Source: a virus (lineage: Duplodnaviria > Caudoviricetes). From it: a DNA stretch of 64,000 bases. Shown here one piece after another: positions 57,879 to 64,000 of the stretch. The DNA is taken from positions 14,690 to 78,689 of the IMG/VR virus record IMGVR_UViG_3300020037_003306. The stretch is one strand, 5' to 3'. The notes beneath the pieces are model-generated. The model was not told where the DNA came from. It saw only the letters and a list, made by a program, of their open reading frames with translations, and ran no database searches. A program made the translations under genes and the position numbers. Each line of letters opens with the position of its first letter. Position 1 is the first letter of the stretch.

Positions 57879-60800
57879 ATGTCTGGTCCAAAGCATATAC
57901 CTTTTGATAATAATCTTAAAGGTAAACAGTCTGCCAATACTACTAATTCTAAACCTGTTCATATTCCTTTAACTTCAGATTTTGCTGCAACTCCTGATGC
58001 AAATTCTGAATTTAAAATGCTACCTACGCTTGATGACAATCGTCAAAAAAGTTATGTTGACCCTACTAAATATAGTCCTTATATAAAAACAGGTGTCATG
58101 GATAATGACCTTCTTGATATTGCTCGTGCGAGGTCGCAAAGTAAAGGAGAGAAATTTCTTGGCTTTTTAAATCAATCTATTCTAGGTGAAATTATTGGAG
58201 GTTCAATTGGTGCTATTGGTGCAACTTTAGATATTCCCGATGCTATTTATTCTAAAATTACTGGAGGTAATGTCGATTTTAGTAATTGGATGACAGGACT
58301 TGGTGATAAAATTCGTGAAACTTCTGAAGAGATGACACCTATTTATGAACGTAATCCTACTGGTTCTTTTCAATTTGGAGATTTTGCTTGGTGGATGAAT
58401 AGAGGTAAATCTGTTGTTTCTACTATATCTATGTTAGTTCCTGCACTTGCAACTACGAAAGGACTTTCTATGCTTGGTAAAGCTGGAGAAGCTCTTGCAG
58501 GTACGAGTAAATTAAAAGGAACTGCTCTTGGTAAAGTACTTGGCGCACCTAATAAAATTGCAGGAGATGCTAGAGAATTAGCTAAACTTGGAGTTAATGC
58601 AACTGTAATGCGTAACGCTGAGAATATGAAAGAAGCTTTTACTACTTATCAAGAAGGGTATGGAGCTGCGCAAGAAGCTTTTCGTGATGATGCTAAATAC
58701 GAAGAATTTCTACAAACAGAACAAGGAAAAGAATTTGCTGCAAATCATGATACTTCTGATAGAGAAATGGCTGCTCAATTTCTAGCTTCTAAAGCTGGTT
58801 GGAAAACTTATCAAGTTAATAGTGCTAATATTGTATTTGATTTGATACAAGCGTCTGCACTTATGAAACCTATTTTTACTGGCGCTCACGCTACAACAAG
58901 AGGTGCAAGAAGAAATGCTGCTTTAACTAACGTTATTAAACCTACTAATAACTCCGCTATTAAAGCTTGGCGTAATACTTCTCCATTCCTCGGTGCTATT
59001 ATGCGTCAAAGCACAGAAGGTATTGAAGAAATGGTCAACCATATTGGCGGAAAAGAAGGTAGTCATTATATCAAAACAATACTTGAAGGTGATGACGGTA
59101 CTGATTTTGCAGATAGACTTGCAGAATACAGTAAAGACCCTGCTATGTGGGAGAGTGGAATGTGGGGTGTAGCTGGTGGTATGGTATTTGAAGGTGTTGG
59201 AAAACTAATGAAAGGTGATTCTGATACTAAATTAAATAGCGCATTATTACAACAAGCTGCTACTCGTAAAACACAGCTTTCTGACCATGCTAAATTTATT
59301 GCAAATACTCAAAATCTAGTAGATGCAAATAAACTTACACAAGACGAAGCTAATAGAAAGATAGGGCAAGCTAAAGCTGCTCTTGCTTCTGAAATGACTT
59401 TAAATGCTATCGCTACACAATCTGTTGACGCACTTCTTGACCAACTTGATAACGGCGATTTTGCAGAAGCTGTTAGAGCTTCAATGCCTAAAGATGAAGC
59501 AAAAGAAATGGGGGATACTGCTGTTCAAAAGGCTGTTGAAAATCTAAAGAACGATATTCTTCAAACAGAGCGTATTTACAAAGAAGCTGCTAAAAATGTT
59601 GAAAGTAGAGATATTCCTGAAGATGTAAAATTCCGTCTTGCAACTAATCAAACTACACGTCAATTTCAGATTGAAAAATTTCACGCAGCTAATCAGGAAA
59701 TTAATGCTAAAATTGCTAAAATTCAAACGCAAGATGTTAATTATATAACTAATTTATCATCTGCTTCTGATATTTATTTAGATTTGAAAGCTGCTGAGGA
59801 TTATCTTAAAGACCAACAAGAAGCTCTTGACGCTTTTAATAAAGGTCAAATTAAAGAACAATTTGATAAGAAAACTGTTGAACATTCTATCAAAGAACTT
59901 CCTGCAGCAATTCAAAAATTAAAAGACCAACTTACTGAACTTGAAACAAGTGGTGTAGGTAAAGGACTTTCTAACCCTGAACTTGACGCTGTAAATAAAG
60001 ATGCTCATACTTTACGTAAAGAATCTTGGAATAATAAATATACTATTGACCTTCAACAGAAAGAACTTTCTCATTTAAAAACTGAAGCTGGTGCAAAAGA
60101 ATATGCTGCAAAAGTTGAAGAGATTAAAACTAAAGTTGAAGAAATTGATAAACGTAATAAATTAAAAGATTACACTGATTCAATTGATAAAACTATTAGT
60201 GCAGGTAATATTGATGCTGCCATTACTGAATTGGAAAGTGAACTGAAAACTCAAACTGGAGTTGAAGAGAAAAAGTATGTTCAAAAGAAACTAAAAGAGC
60301 TTAAAGATAAGAAAGATTTTTTAGCTAAAACTCAGGTTGAAGAAGAAACTGAAACTGTAGATGGTACTGAAGAAACGGAAGGTGAAATTCCTCAAACTCC
60401 TGAAACTAAATCTACAATTCAAGTAACTGATGAACAAGTTAAAAAAGAACTTGGAGCTGCTCTTTTTAGCGCATTAGAAAAAGCTATTAATAAAATTCTA
60501 ACAAGTGGAGATTCTAAAGAGAAAATTACCAAAGATTTAGAAGCTCGTAAGAATGGTATTAAATTAAAAGATAAACCCCTTGCTCAAGCTTATATTCAAG
60601 CTAAAATTGACGCTGTTAATCAAGTATCAAATGATACTCAATTGACTGAATATCAAGGTATTAAAGTTGGCAATATCTATACACTTAAAGGTGTAACTTA
60701 CGAAGTTACTAAAATTGTCGATAATGGTACTGAAGTTAAAATCATTACTATTAAAGATGGTACTAAAAGTTCTAGTCTAAAAGCTGCCCAAGTGCTGGGC

Positions 60801-63800
60801 AAACTTAGTACGGGCGAAATGAAACTTCTTAACACTGAAACAACTACTCAAATTGATACTGATGTATTAGTAAAACATTTAGAAGATATGCAAAGTCTTC
60901 CTAATGATGCTGATTATCATTTATTCAATTTTGTAAATAATCTTGCTAATAAGTTAGGAGTCGAAGTTCCTGCTGAAATTATTGAGTTAATTAATTTGAT
61001 TGATAATACTTACGGTATTACAGTTGCAGTTAATCCTAAAGCTAATGAATTTCCAGCAGGCTTTAACCCTGCTAATAATCGCATTACGTTTTATCCTAGT
61101 GTAATTAAAGGGCTTAATCTCGATTCTGATTTCCTCTTTAGAGAAATTATTGGACATGAACTTATCCATGCTTTACTAACTAATAAATATCCTCATAATA
61201 CTGCTGAAAGAACAGCCTTTGAAAATTGGCTAAAAGGTAAAATTACTGCTAATAAAGATTTATTAACTGATAAAGTTTTTAAACCTATTCTTGACGGCAA
61301 TCCCGAAGAGTTACTTACCTACGCTTTAACTAATCCTAAAGTATGGGAACAATTACCTATTGAATTACAAACCGTAATTGAAGATTTTGTTGAAAATATC
61401 ATGCCTGAATTAGATGGACTTCTTGAGATTGTCAAAACAGCTCAATACCAAGAACAAAATCCTACTAATGAAACGCAAGAGAATACTGAATTACCTGTTA
61501 AAATTACCGACCCTGCTCGTCTTCGTGCAAAAGAATATAACCTTGATTTAGATGCAATTGAAGGTACTGGTAAAAATGGAACTATTACTTTAACCGATGT
61601 TCAAAATTTCATTAAAACTAATAATATTACTTTGCTTGACGAAATTCCAACTGAATCATTAACTTCTAACAATGAAGTTGCAGAAGGAAGTAATAATATC
61701 TTTTTAAGTTTCCTTGACTTAGGTATTAAAGATGGAGTTGTAGATGTCAATCACTATAAAGAGCAAGTTAGAAAACGTGGTTGGAGAGTACCTGATATTA
61801 CGCAAGAGGAACTCGAAGAAGCTATTATTGCAACTACTACTGGAGAAATAAATACAGGTTCAACTCTTGAGTTAGTTCCTGAAGGAAGAGGTATTGCTAT
61901 TAAAACACGTAAAGGTATTACTATTGGTTGGTTAAATGATATTGATAGATTGCGTGAAGAGTATAAATATGCACTCGCTCTTAGTAAAATGACAATGGAC
62001 GAGCTTACAGCTGAAAAGAAGAAGTACGAAAAAAGTTTTTATACTTATCATAATCGTCTTATTAAATGGAGAATGAGTGAGTTCTACGCTAATAATACTA
62101 ATAAACCTTTTGCTACTGCTATTGAAACATTAAAAAATCAAGGTGTTTCAGCGAAAGCGATTATTGAAACTATTAAGAATACACTTGCTCGTGACCCTAA
62201 TGCTAAGTTTTACACTCAAGTTACTCGTAAAACATCAGGTAATTTATTGCAAGACGATAAGCAACAAAGTTTAGATAGCGTATTTCCTGAACTTGATGAA
62301 ATATTTATAGCTCCATCAACAACTCAAGCTGGTCATAAATCTAGTATCCTTGTATCTTCTAAAGATTCTACAATAGAGTTCCAAAGAATTTCTGAGAATG
62401 AGTATATGAATCATGATAATGAATATTACGCTGGAACTGTTTATATTATGGTTCCTGGTGCAAATGCAATTGAAGGTAATATTTCAACTTATATTCCTGT
62501 ACCATGTTCTGTTAATAATGTTAATGAAGAAACTGCCAATAAAATCACTGATTTAATTGGTAAGCTTGCTAATGTTATGATGGAACTTCATGCTTCAAAA
62601 ACTGATAGTTTTAATATTCTAGTTAATGAGCGAGTGTCTGCACTTCGCAATGAGATTAACGATTATATTAACGTTACAAAAGCTAACTCTACTAATGAAG
62701 ATTATTTCAAAGTTTATAGCGATAGCATTAAATTTTCTTATGGGAAAGGTCTTGTTGCTAGCATTTACTTTAAAAATGAACAGAAAGAATCTGTTATAAA
62801 TTTAGTTCTAACTGACCCTTCTAAAAAAGATGCTAAAGGTAAAGATTTGATTATTAAACAACCTAACTTTAAAGGTGCAGAAGTAAGTGCGTTAAATGCA
62901 ATGACAGATGGTAATAAACCTGTCTTTCGTGCTAAATTGAATGAGTTGCTACAAACGAAACGTCATAATGTCAATTTTAAGAAATTAAAATCTGACGAAG
63001 AATACCGTAAGCATTTGTTTAAAAATGTTATTACTACTGATGTTAAAACTGTTAAAACTCCTGATGGTAAAGATTTAAAAAACGGAAAAAATCGTGTTCC
63101 GTCGGTAACTTCCAAAGGTGCAAAAAAAGACAAAAATAGTAGCTTGGTGCTTAGTATTTCCAGCAAATTAGGCGTGAAAAGTTCTGTGCTTACTTCTAAT
63201 ACATCTACGCAAAAACAAGGGCAGGAAACTAAAGTAAATGAGCCGAAACCAAGCCAAACAACGACAAAAGTTGAGCTTGCTAATGGTGATATGCAAATTG
63301 TTGCTGATGCTTTATTTGAAAAGGGAACTGTTACGCTTTCTACCAAAAAAGAAGCTGACGATTTGAAGAAAGCTGTTAGAAAGCAATTAGCTCAAGGTGA
63401 AGTTATTGATATTAAGAAAATTGATGATAATAATTTTGAAGTAAGTATCATTTCTAATAATAGCGGCATCGCCCGTACTAAAGTTGTTTCGGGAATTGTA
63501 CAAACTGATGAAGCTATTAACGTTGAAAATGCTAAAGCTTGGTGGGCTAAAACATTTGGAGAAAATGTTGAACTTGACATGAACGTTACAGGTATTCTAC
63601 TTATCAACGGAGTTGAAGCTTGGGGTGTTTTTCAAGATGCTATGGCTAAAATTAGTACAAGTGCTATAAAAGGAACTGAATATCACGAGGCTTTTCACGT
63701 TGTTTTTTGGTTATATAATAATGAAGAGCAGAGAGCTGCACTCCTTGAAGAAGCTAGAAGTCGCTATGGTAACATCGGTAATGTTGCTTTAGAGGAAAAT

Positions 63801-64000
63801 CTTGCTGACGAGTTTATGGATTATATGCTTAAAGGTGGTAAAACTTCTCGTGTTGAAAAAGGTTCTAAAACTGAAGGCTTCTTTGCTAAAATCTATAATT
63901 GGATTAAAAGTTTCTTTAGTAAACCTATTCCAAAGAGTTTAACTGAAGACTTGTATGATAAAATTGATAGCGGTACGTTCAATTATAAACCTGATGAAGC
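57879..64000 (+). CDS. Partial giant virion cargo polyprotein (>2040 aa; TM segments, two zincin HExxH motifs, PSBD-like domain)
   Basis: ATG 57879 (MSGPKHIPF). Not in the ORF track, which implies no in-frame stop before the window end. Gly-rich TM segments, STEGIEEMVN motif, HELIH at 61155-61169, HEAFH at 63684-63698. Confidence 0.8.
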   Translation, partial: MSGPKHIPFDNNLKGKQSANTTNSKPVHIPLTSDFAATPDANSEFKMLPTLDDNRQKSYVDPTKYSPYIKTGVMDNDLLDIARARSQSKGEKFLGFLNQSILGEIIGGSIGAIGATLDIPDAIYSKITGGNVDFSNWMTGLGDKIRETSEEMTPIYERNPTGSFQFGDFAWWMNRGKSVVSTISMLVPALATTKGLSMLGKAGEALAGTSKLKGTALGKVLGAPNKIAGDARELAKLGVNATVMRNAENMKEAFTTYQEGYGAAQEAFRDDAKYEEFLQTEQGKEFAANHDTSDREMAAQFLASKAGWKTYQVNSANIVFDLIQASALMKPIFTGAHATTRGARRNAALTNVIKPTNNSAIKAWRNTSPFLGAIMRQSTEGIEEMVNHIGGKEGSHYIKTILEGDDGTDFADRLAEYSKDPAMWESGMWGVAGGMVFEGVGKLMKGDSDTKLNSALLQQAATRKTQLSDHAKFIANTQNLVDANKLTQDEANRKIGQAKAALASEMTLNAIATQSVDALLDQLDNGDFAEAVRASMPKDEAKEMGDTAVQKAVENLKNDILQTERIYKEAAKNVESRDIPEDVKFRLATNQTTRQFQIEKFHAANQEINAKIAKIQTQDVNYITNLSSASDIYLDLKAAEDYLKDQQEALDAFNKGQIKEQFDKKTVEHSIKELPAAIQKLKDQLTELETSGVGKGLSNPELDAVNKDAHTLRKESWNNKYTIDLQQKELSHLKTEAGAKEYAAKVEEIKTKVEEIDKRNKLKDYTDSIDKTISAGNIDAAITELESELKTQTGVEEKKYVQKKLKELKDKKDFLAKTQVEEETETVDGTEETEGEIPQTPETKSTIQVTDEQVKKELGAALFSALEKAINKILTSGDSKEKITKDLEARKNGIKLKDKPLAQAYIQAKIDAVNQVSNDTQLTEYQGIKVGNIYTLKGVTYEVTKIVDNGTEVKIITIKDGTKSSSLKAAQVLGKLSTGEMKLLNTETTTQIDTDVLVKHLEDMQSLPNDADYHLFNFVNNLANKLGVEVPAEIIELINLIDNTYGITVAVNPKANEFPAGFNPANNRITFYPSVIKGLNLDSDFLFREIIGHELIHALLTNKYPHNTAERTAFENWLKGKITANKDLLTDKVFKPILDGNPEELLTYALTNPKVWEQLPIELQTVIEDFVENIMPELDGLLEIVKTAQYQEQNPTNETQENTELPVKITDPARLRAKEYNLDLDAIEGTGKNGTITLTDVQNFIKTNNITLLDEIPTESLTSNNEVAEGSNNIFLSFLDLGIKDGVVDVNHYKEQVRKRGWRVPDITQEELEEAIIATTTGEINTGSTLELVPEGRGIAIKTRKGITIGWLNDIDRLREEYKYALALSKMTMDELTAEKKKYEKSFYTYHNRLIKWRMSEFYANNTNKPFATAIETLKNQGVSAKAIIETIKNTLARDPNAKFYTQVTRKTSGNLLQDDKQQSLDSVFPELDEIFIAPSTTQAGHKSSILVSSKDSTIEFQRISENEYMNHDNEYYAGTVYIMVPGANAIEGNISTYIPVPCSVNNVNEETANKITDLIGKLANVMMELHASKTDSFNILVNERVSALRNEINDYINVTKANSTNEDYFKVYSDSIKFSYGKGLVASIYFKNEQKESVINLVLTDPSKKDAKGKDLIIKQPNFKGAEVSALNAMTDGNKPVFRAKLNELLQTKRHNVNFKKLKSDEEYRKHLFKNVITTDVKTVKTPDGKDLKNGKNRVPSVTSKGAKKDKNSSLVLSISSKLGVKSSVLTSNTSTQKQGQETKVNEPKPSQTTTKVELANGDMQIVADALFEKGTVTLSTKKEADDLKKAVRKQLAQGEVIDIKKIDDNNFEVSIISNNSGIARTKVVSGIVQTDEAINVENAKAWWAKTFGENVELDMNVTGILLINGVEAWGVFQDAMAKISTSAIKGTEYHEAFHVVFWLYNNEEQRAALLEEARSRYGNIGNVALEENLADEFMDYMLKGGKTSRVEKGSKTEGFFAKIYNWIKSFFSKPIPKSLTEDLYDKIDSGTFNYKPDE

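What the first reader, a model, noticed from the sequence alone, without database searches (positions are those of the whole stretch)
61503..61616. E3-binding (PSBD)-like domain of 2-oxoacid dehydrogenase E2 embedded in the giant injected protein
Seen, in frame with ATG 57879: ITDPARLRAKEYNLDLDAIEGTGKNGTITLTDVQNFIK, flanked by E/T/P-rich linkers. Established: the peripheral subunit-binding domain of dihydrolipoamide acyltransferases has the pattern SPxARxLAxExxIDLxxVxGTGxxGRITxxDV and binds E3/E1. This segment keeps P-R-A-E-LD-L-I-GTG-G-IT-DV. Inference: a virion cargo protein delivered at infection could dock onto or decoy host pyruvate/2-oxoglutarate dehydrogenase subunits, or the fold could have been repurposed as a nucleic-acid or protein-binding module. 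I am not aware of this domain being described in crAss-like cargo proteins.
Basis: partly seen in the sequence, partly recalled or inferred. Interest (0 to 1): 0.72.

Follow-up and report, generated by a model that had tools for sequence, protein, structure and literature searches.

The report
PDH docking domain in phage polymerase
A small clade of crAss-like phages carries, inside its roughly 5,000-residue virion RNA polymerase polyprotein, a genuine copy of the 40-residue domain that bacterial pyruvate/2-oxoacid dehydrogenase cores use to hold their E3 and E1 enzymes; what it binds in the phage is unknown.

Summary
Window 61503-61616 (+) encodes residues 1209-1246 of the 3'-open ORF 57879..63998. 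This stretch matches Pfam PF02817 (E3_binding) above the curated cut-off. Its best sequence matches among solved structures are all PSBDs of E2 chains. AlphaFold2 folds it into a PSBD, about 1 A rmsd to solved PSBDs by two independent aligners.

It is a bead between two roughly 20-residue disordered linkers. Upstream lies a minimal zincin-like domain and downstream an alpha/beta domain.

The host protein is the crAss gp45-like "RNAP-associated/zincin" protein. In full-length relatives (4,456-5,073 aa) it is fused to the virion RNA polymerase. This record breaks inside the gene and lacks about 2,100 residues.

The PSBD sits at the same place in 7 relatives (27-50% identity). It is absent from 9 other crAss-like records, including p-crAssphage.

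Only one of the three classical E3-gripping arginines is conserved, net charge is about 0, and clade-specific residues are conserved instead.

Best reading: a flexibly tethered protein-docking bead with an unresolved partner (host E3/E1 about 0.25; phage or other partner about 0.35). A stoichiometric decoy of host PDH is unlikely. The scan noted a similar case in another crAss-like genome. I found no published description.

The parts
57879..63998 (+). 5' part (2040 codons) of the giant gp45-like / virion RNA polymerase polyprotein gene. The ORF runs off the end of the record.
   Evidence: ORF list. Collinear with residues 86-2060 of the 4981-aa relative P0003, while the record's first ORF (L002:1-2379) matches P0003 4276-4981. 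Residues 40-690 match crAssphage gp45 at 25-30% identity. Same gene order as relatives.
60858..61442 (+). Minimal zincin-like metallopeptidase domain 1 (residues ~994-1188; HELIH at 61155-61169).
   Evidence: HExxH at residue 1093, invariant H/E/H in relatives. Weak Pfam SprT-like hit. AF2 pLDDT ~80. Weak fold matches to selecase, minigluzincins, PPEP and the lethal-factor-type zincin fold.
61443..61493 (+). N-side flexible linker (residues ~1189-1205), Q/E/N/T-rich.
   Evidence: pLDDT below 50 in both AF2 models. Length and sequence vary among relatives.
61494..61622 (+). PSBD (E3_binding) domain, residues ~1206-1248. The finding's 61503-61616 is its core.
   Evidence: PF02817 31-37 bits against a 23.7 cut-off. 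PDB sequence hits are all PSBDs. AF2 pLDDT 86-91. Foldseek ranks 1-15 are all PSBD chains, several at rmsd 0.9-1.2 A, and only two integrative E2-E3 models interrupt the PSBD run down to rank 35. VIA-align Z ~7, rmsd 1.1-1.6 A over 42-43 residues.
61629..61694 (+). C-side flexible linker (residues ~1251-1272). It begins with a clade-conserved NN[IL] motif.
   Evidence: pLDDT below 50. The first Asn is kept in at least 6 of 8 copies and the NN[IL] triplet in 5 of 8.
61695..62231 (+). Next folded alpha/beta domain (residues ~1273-1451) of unknown function.
   Evidence: AF2 pLDDT 65-85. Only weak fold matches (3k2y Z 6.5, HIRAN Z 4.5). Conserved in the clade.
63684..63698 (+). HEAFH motif of the second zincin-like module (residue 1936).
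   Evidence: Motif scan. Query positions ~1040-1200 (protein residues ~1880-2040) are matched by most of the 307 hits in the representative search.

Best explanation
The segment is a true homologue of the peripheral subunit-binding domain (PSBD) of 2-oxoacid dehydrogenase E2 chains. It has been inserted as a 40-residue two-helix bead on two roughly 20-residue disordered tethers. It lies between a minimal zincin-like domain and an alpha/beta domain, in the N-terminal half of a roughly 5,000-residue crAss-type virion RNA polymerase polyprotein.

Shown: the domain identity, the predicted fold, the beads-on-a-string layout, and positional conservation in a small phage clade.

Inferred: as in E2 chains, it acts as a flexibly tethered protein-docking site. 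It would act either after the polyprotein is ejected into the host and refolds, or during its loading into the capsid. The partner is unresolved. I put about 0.25 on host E3 (Lpd) or E1, the only known ligand class. I put about 0.35 on a phage-specific or other partner, for example another part of the ejected polymerase machinery or an internal virion component. The second is favoured because the clade conserves its own surface residues rather than the classical Arg triad.
For: Domain identity.

Fold: AF2 pLDDT 86-91. Foldseek ranks 1-15 are all PSBD chains, with TM-score normalised to the target of about 0.8-0.9 for most. VIA-align found the same without relying on Foldseek.

Tethers: pLDDT below 50 on both sides, 17 and 22 residues. 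This matches the 25-30-residue linkers of E2 chains (PMC6270654).

Conservation: the domain sits at the same position in P0003, P0004, P0005, P0007, P0008, L017 and L021 despite 27-50% identity. Six of the 24 invariant columns of the 516-residue region lie within the 40-residue PSBD. Conserved positions are T, A, R/K, Y, N, I, GTG, NG, T, DV and N, meaning the fold core plus clade-specific residues.

No E3-like dimerisation domain is encoded by the phage record, so a canonical partner would have to come from the host. A Bacteroides control genome has both E3_binding and Pyr_redox_dim.
Against: No binding data of any kind. The partner cannot be inferred from presence/absence, because relatives lacking the PSBD also lack the whole middle region by BLAST. 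The basic patch said to drive E3/E1 binding (PMC6270654) is mostly gone: net charge is 0 here and -2 to +4 in the clade. A conserved core with a variable surface would also fit a purely structural spacer.
Confidence: 0.6

Rival explanations
1. Metabolic decoy. The injected PSBD competes with host E2 for E3/E1 and so shuts down or rewires host pyruvate/2-oxoglutarate dehydrogenase.
For: The only experimentally known ligands of this fold are E3 and E1. The first Arg position is basic in 7 of 8 phage copies, and GR is kept in 3 of 8. Genuine E2 PSBDs also lack the GR arginine in some cases, for example 1w4i has V there.
Against: Stoichiometry. RNAP-associated cargo proteins were estimated at about 6 copies per crAss001 virion (PMC10172136), far too few to titrate an abundant enzyme. 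Two of the three Arg positions are not conserved and the domain is not basic. The domain is missing from most crAss-like phages.
Confidence: 0.07
2. Nucleic-acid recognition module. The PSBD contacts RNA or DNA for the polymerase.
For: Precedent: the E3-binding domain of Chlamydomonas DLA2 confers specificity for the psbA 5'UTR A-stretch and competes with E3 (bioRxiv 10.1101/831339). The domain sits in a transcription machine.
Against: Net charge of the phage PSBD is 0, against a basic canonical PSBD. The helix-1 basic cluster is lost. There is no Pfam hit to SAP, HeH or Rho_N-type modules.
Confidence: 0.12
3. Passive structural unit. The PSBD is a small, autonomous, very fast-folding spacer that separates domains or helps the ejected chain refold, with no specific ligand.
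For: PSBDs are among the fastest-folding domains known (titles of 1w4e-1w4k and 2wxc). crAss cargo proteins are thought to pass through the tail at least partly unfolded and refold in the cytoplasm (PMC10172136). What is conserved is mostly the fold core.
Against: The clade also conserves exposed-looking residues not typical of PSBDs (Y, N, NG, NN[IL]) and one basic helix-1 position. Most crAss-like giant proteins manage without it.
Confidence: 0.18

Closest known systems
Peripheral subunit-binding domain (PSBD; Pfam PF02817 E3_binding) of E2 chains and E3BP of pyruvate, 2-oxoglutarate and branched-chain 2-oxoacid dehydrogenase complexes
   Same: Sequence signature (A-R/K ... GTG-x-x-G-x-IT-x-x-DV), about 40 residues, two helices with a 3-10 turn between them, and about 1 A rmsd to solved PSBDs. 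Flanked by flexible linkers like the beads of an E2 swinging arm.
   Different: No lipoyl domain before it and no acyltransferase core after it. It is embedded in a phage virion polymerase polyprotein. Two of the three classical Arg contacts are not conserved, net charge is about 0, and there are clade-specific conserved residues. The ligand is unknown.
crAssphage gp45-type 'RNAP-associated protein fused to zincin protease' and the crAss virion RNA polymerase (p-crAssphage gp44/gp45; RNAP-associated virion proteins gp47/gp49/gp50 of crAss001)
   Same: Homologous N-terminal ~600 residues, HExxH modules, and a position right after the ring/muzzle/cargo genes. Relatives carry the DFDVD polymerase module.
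   Different: In this clade everything is fused into one chain of 4,456-5,073 aa in the complete relatives. The middle region (zincin 1, PSBD, alpha/beta domain) has no BLAST counterpart in p-crAssphage or the other crAss-like records, and those lack any PF02817 hit.
Cellular multi-PSBD proteins without an acyltransferase core (found here as P0077, P0108, P0116, P0123 and P0117, P0137)
   Same: They show that PSBD modules are reused outside standard E2 chains, as strings of beads on linkers.
   Different: They hold 3-4 canonical copies, mostly with the AARR and GR motifs. They combine with phasin/CsbD-like helices or a lipoyl domain, and have no link to phage virions.

Membership tests
PSBD / E3_binding (PF02817) | Profile match above Pfam's gathering score | tested here: met
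   31.2 bits (whole protein), 36.4 bits (segment) and 37.1 bits (six-frame search of the record), against a cut-off of 23.7.
PSBD / E3_binding (PF02817) | Fold of about 35-40 residues: two helices joined by a loop with a 3-10 turn | tested here: met
   AF2 gives helices at 23-31 and 50-60 of the 78-aa segment with pLDDT 86-91. Foldseek top hits are all PSBDs at rmsd 0.9-1.2 A. VIA-align Z ~7 over 42-43 of 43 residues. This is a prediction, not a solved structure.
PSBD / E3_binding (PF02817) | Independent bead between long flexible linkers | tested here: met
   pLDDT below 50 for 17 residues before and 22 residues after it in the 516-residue model. The linkers vary among relatives.
PSBD / E3_binding (PF02817) | Basic surface and Arg contacts that grip E3/E1 (R135, R139, R156 in Bacillus numbering, recalled from memory; basic patch per PMC6270654) | tested here: inconclusive
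   The window has R, K and T at these positions. Across 8 phage copies the positions are basic in 7/8, 2/8 and 3/8. Net charge is 0. Some genuine E2 PSBDs also lack the third Arg (1w4i).
PSBD / E3_binding (PF02817) | Lies in an E2/E3BP chain (lipoyl domain upstream, acyltransferase core downstream) | tested here: not met
   No Biotin_lipoyl or 2-oxoacid_dh hit in the 2040-aa product. The flanking domains are a zincin-like domain and an unknown alpha/beta domain.
PSBD / E3_binding (PF02817) | Binds E3 and/or E1 | not testable with these tools
   No multimer prediction or binding assay is available, and the host is unknown.
crAss-like virion RNAP polyprotein (gp45-like + RNAP) | Homology to the crAssphage gp45 N-terminal region, and synteny after the ring/muzzle/cargo genes | tested here: met
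   25-30% identity over residues 40-690 to 68 crAss-like records. The gene order 1327 aa / 629 aa / 853 aa / giant gene / 1703-aa PD-(D/E)XK protein matches the relatives.
crAss-like virion RNAP polyprotein (gp45-like + RNAP) | Catalytic DxDxD polymerase module | tested here: inconclusive
   Present in relatives (DFDVD at P0003 residue 3569; that region matches annotated crAss RNAP genes in 134 records). The corresponding ~2,100 residues are missing from this record.
crAss-like virion RNAP polyprotein (gp45-like + RNAP) | Packaged in the virion and ejected into the host | not testable with these tools
   Known only for cultured relatives (PMC10172136).

The most novel reading that the evidence does not exclude
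An injected phage transcription machine carries a working E3/E1-docking domain. On entry it would latch onto the host's dihydrolipoamide dehydrogenase or the PDH/OGDH complex, as a landing platform, cofactor or metabolic sensor. That would physically link the first round of phage transcription to a central metabolic complex.
Probability: 0.22. Interest if true: 0.8.

Novelty: new variant of a known kind. Interest (0 to 1): 0.5.

Why it matters
PSBDs are textbook parts of 2-oxoacid dehydrogenase cores and have essentially one known job. A conserved copy inside the ejected RNA polymerase polyprotein of crAss-like phages points to one of two things. Either there is a previously unknown contact between a phage early-infection machine and host central metabolism, or this mini-domain has been reused as a general tethered docking bead in virion cargo. 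Both are directly testable with a 40-residue peptide. The domain also marks a distinct clade of crAss-like phages with 80-85 kb genomes and a single fused polymerase chain of 4,456-5,073 residues in the complete relatives.

Tried and rejected
Searches that found nothing:
- Megablast of the gene against deposited phages gave no match.
- The word-indexed protein search with residues 1000-1500 gave none. With the PSBD alone against longer proteins it also gave none.
- The single-protein scan of viral contigs gave none.
- The genome-contig scan for the nearest cellular PSBD gave none, so the donor lineage could not be traced.
- tblastn of the PSBD against deposited phages returned only weak hits (E 0.09-0.9) in short unannotated Listeria and Staphylococcus 'phage' records, which I take to be host E2 DNA.
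- PHROGs has no family for the giant protein. The PSBD segment gave only a marginal hit (phrog_29451, E 0.0024). Canonical multi-PSBD proteins hit no PHROG.

Literature searches for PSBD with phage, PF02817, and Arg135 found no description of a phage PSBD.

Ideas rejected:
- A SAP/HeH/Rho_N-type DNA-binding hairpin misread as a PSBD. Only PF02817 scores, and the GTG..G.IT..DV loop is specific to PSBDs.
- A natural gene split at the PSBD in relative L009. The frame break lies inside zincin domain 1, just before the EELLTY motif, and looks like a 1-nt indel.
- A phage-encoded E3-like partner. No Pyr_redox_dim domain is present.

Full report
**1. The observation**

The peptide occupies 61503-61616 and is in frame with the ATG at 57879. 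That ATG opens a 2040-codon ORF that runs off the end of the window.

Pfam PF02817 (E3_binding) matches at 31.2 bits in the whole protein and 36.4 bits in the segment alone, against a curated cut-off of 23.7. A six-frame search of the whole 78.7-kb record finds this site only, at 37.1 bits. A sequence search of the PDB returns PSBDs of E2 chains as the top 22 hits (best 1w4i, E 3.4e-4).

**2. Fold and local anatomy**

I built a six-sequence alignment of the segment and its relatives (A3). AlphaFold2 on that alignment gives pLDDT 86-91 for the core, with two helices and 3-10 turns between them, and flanks below 50-65.

Foldseek against the PDB lists PSBD chains at ranks 1-15, several at 0.9-1.2 A rmsd, and only two integrative E2-E3 models interrupt the PSBD run down to rank 35. 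All E-values are above 0.001 because the domain is so short, but probabilities are 1.00. VIA-align, which does not depend on Foldseek, independently puts 2f5z_K, 1w85_I, 3rnm_F and 4qoy_F on top (Z about 7, rmsd 1.1-1.6 A, 42-43 of 43 residues).

A 516-residue model of residues 985-1500 (A5) shows this layout:
- a zincin-like domain (residues ~994-1188, HELIH at 1093);
- a 17-residue linker with pLDDT below 50;
- the PSBD (~1206-1248);
- a 22-residue linker with pLDDT below 50;
- an alpha/beta domain (~1273-1451).

The zincin-like domain has weak fold matches to selecase, minigluzincins, PPEP and the lethal-factor-type zincin fold. The overall layout is the same beads-on-flexible-linkers design as in E2 chains (PMC6270654).

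**3. What protein this is**

The phage is crAss-like:
- The major capsid protein is 36-38% identical to Crassvirales capsid proteins.
- Terminase and portal hit the matching PHROGs.
- Residues 40-690 of the giant ORF match p-crAssphage gp45, 'putative RNAP associated protein fused to zincin protease', and its homologues at 25-30% identity.

An exhaustive HMMER search with residues 841-2040 found relatives of 3,233-5,073 aa. The window ORF is collinear with residues 86-2060 of P0003 (4,981 aa). The 5'-open ORF at the start of the record (L002:1-2379) matches P0003 4276-4981. So the record is broken inside this gene and lacks roughly 2,100 residues, even though it is rated 100% complete.

In the relatives the missing part contains a DFDVD motif. 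The region around it matches annotated RNA polymerase genes of 134 crAss-like, Cellulophaga and Flavobacterium phage records. Gene order around the giant gene is the same in the relatives: ring protein, a ~1,300-aa protein, two mid-size proteins, the giant gene, then a ~1,700-aa PD-(D/E)XK protein.

In crAss001 the RNAP-associated proteins were detected in virions by mass spectrometry and are thought to be ejected, partly unfolded, ahead of the DNA (PMC10172136). 'Giant injected protein' is therefore a fair description by homology, though it is not shown for this phage.

**4. Distribution**

The PSBD lies at the same position, after zincin 1 and before the alpha/beta domain, in seven relatives: P0003/L005, P0005, P0007/L007, P0008/L008, P0004/L009, L017 and L021. 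These share only 27-50% identity with the window protein in this region. L017 reaches only 18.9 bits with Pfam. For P0004's gene the collection already lists PF02817.

The domain is absent from nine other records:
- By six-frame Pfam search it is absent from seven further records checked: four complete and two partial IMG/VR crAss-like records, p-crAssphage and isolate ctcc615. A local PSBD profile agrees.
- By the local profile alone it is also absent from L012 (nearly identical to L011) and from a Tara Oceans relative that shares the zincin 1 module (L023).

In the more distant relatives only the N-terminal ~600 residues are alignable. The PSBD therefore belongs to a clade-specific middle region. 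Only one other IMG/VR record carries it, so the clade looks rare.

**5. Is it built to bind E3/E1?**

From memory, the Bacillus PSBD grips E3 and E1 through R135, R139 and R156. A review states that a cluster of basic residues around helix 1 is needed for binding (PMC6270654).

| Position (Bacillus numbering) | This window | Basic in the 8 phage copies |
|---|---|---|
| R135 | R | 7 of 8 |
| R139 | K | 2 of 8 |
| R156 | T | 3 of 8 (Arg) |

Net charge of the core is 0 here and -2 to +4 across the clade. What the clade conserves is the fold core (T, A, I, GTG, G, T, DV) plus residues not typical of E2 PSBDs: Y-N at the end of helix 1, N before the second G, and NN[IL] after helix 2.

Six of the 24 invariant columns of the 516-residue region fall within the 40-residue PSBD, so the domain is under constraint.

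Loss of the third Arg is not disqualifying, since the genuine E2 PSBD 1w4i has Val there. The phage record encodes no E3-like dimerisation domain, so a canonical partner would have to be host-encoded. A Bacteroides control genome has both domain families.

**6. Mechanism**

I commit to a flexibly tethered protein-docking bead, with confidence 0.6. Within that, I put host E3/E1 at about 0.25 and a phage-specific or other partner at about 0.35. The second is favoured because the conserved surface is clade-specific. One attractive sub-idea is that the bead helps load or position the polyprotein inside the capsid, or holds pieces of the polymerase machinery together after ejection. This is inference only.

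- **Stoichiometric decoy of PDH/OGDH: unlikely (0.07).** Only a handful of copies would be injected per virion (about 6 in crAss001).
- **Nucleic-acid binding: 0.12.** It has one precedent, the Chlamydomonas DLA2 E3-binding domain (bioRxiv 10.1101/831339). It fits poorly with a neutral domain.
- **Passive, very fast-folding spacer: 0.18.** It fits the known folding behaviour of PSBDs (PDB entry titles) and the need to refold after ejection. It does not explain the conserved non-core residues.

**7. Novelty**

I found no paper describing a PSBD in a phage protein. PHROGs holds no such family by my tests.

The scan's own notes record a similar case in another crAss-like genome (e1-5361362) and PSBD-like modules in phage head-module genes (e1-5176553, e1-3291022). 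I did not test those. A sequence look-up with a clade relative's PSBD region (L005, the P0003 locus) found no look-alike stretch in any other scanned window; the window's own region matched only this window.

This is a known domain in a new context, so I class it as a new variant of a known kind. Interest is moderate. The identity is solid and the context is striking, but the function rests on inference.

Noticed in passing
window 63999-64000 / L002:1-2379 (record start): The viral record is rated 100% complete but is broken inside the giant gene. The two ends match P0003 residues up to 2060 and from 4276 onward, so about 2,100 codons (about 6.3 kb, including the DFDVD polymerase motif) are missing. 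The two ORF pieces are not in frame across a direct join.
   Followed up: yes
P0077, P0108, P0116, P0123 (233-564 aa) and P0117, P0137 (808-1103 aa): Cellular proteins with 3-4 tandem canonical PSBDs and no acyltransferase core. One acidic group is combined with phasin/CsbD/ApoLp-III-like helices. Another has a lipoyl domain plus four PSBDs.
   Followed up: partly
L009:1680-1700: In relative P0004's contig the giant gene is interrupted by a frame break just before the EELLTY motif of zincin domain 1. It is probably a 1-nt indel (assembly error or real). The called 3983-aa product therefore starts 40 residues before the PSBD.
   Followed up: partly
L004:8641-16239 (crAssphage isolate ctcc615, MH552500.1): The homologous giant protein of this mouse crAss-like phage ends in an ART-PolyVal ADP-ribosyltransferase domain (54.6 bits). 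This shows that the variable part of these cargo proteins collects different effector-like modules.
   Followed up: no
L002:190-384 (residues 64-128 of the C-terminal piece): A LytR_C domain hit (24.1 bits, cut-off 22.2) in the C-terminal part of the same giant protein.
   Followed up: no
window 61695-62231: The alpha/beta domain after the PSBD has weak fold matches to lp_0118 (3k2y, Z 6.5) and to the HIRAN DNA 3'-end-binding domain (4xzg, Z 4.5). These are too weak to name the fold.
   Followed up: no
L002:2436-7547 and homologues in L005, L007, L008, L009: A conserved ~1,700-aa protein with a PD-(D/E)XK nuclease domain follows the giant gene in every member of the clade except L008, where a 153-aa DUF5675 gene intervenes.
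   Followed up: no
L023 (TARA_R110000824_G_scaffold37525_3): A Tara Oceans contig encodes a relative that shares zincin domain 1 (HELLH and the KELLTYALTNP motif) but has no PSBD after it. This places part of the wider group in marine samples.
   Followed up: partly
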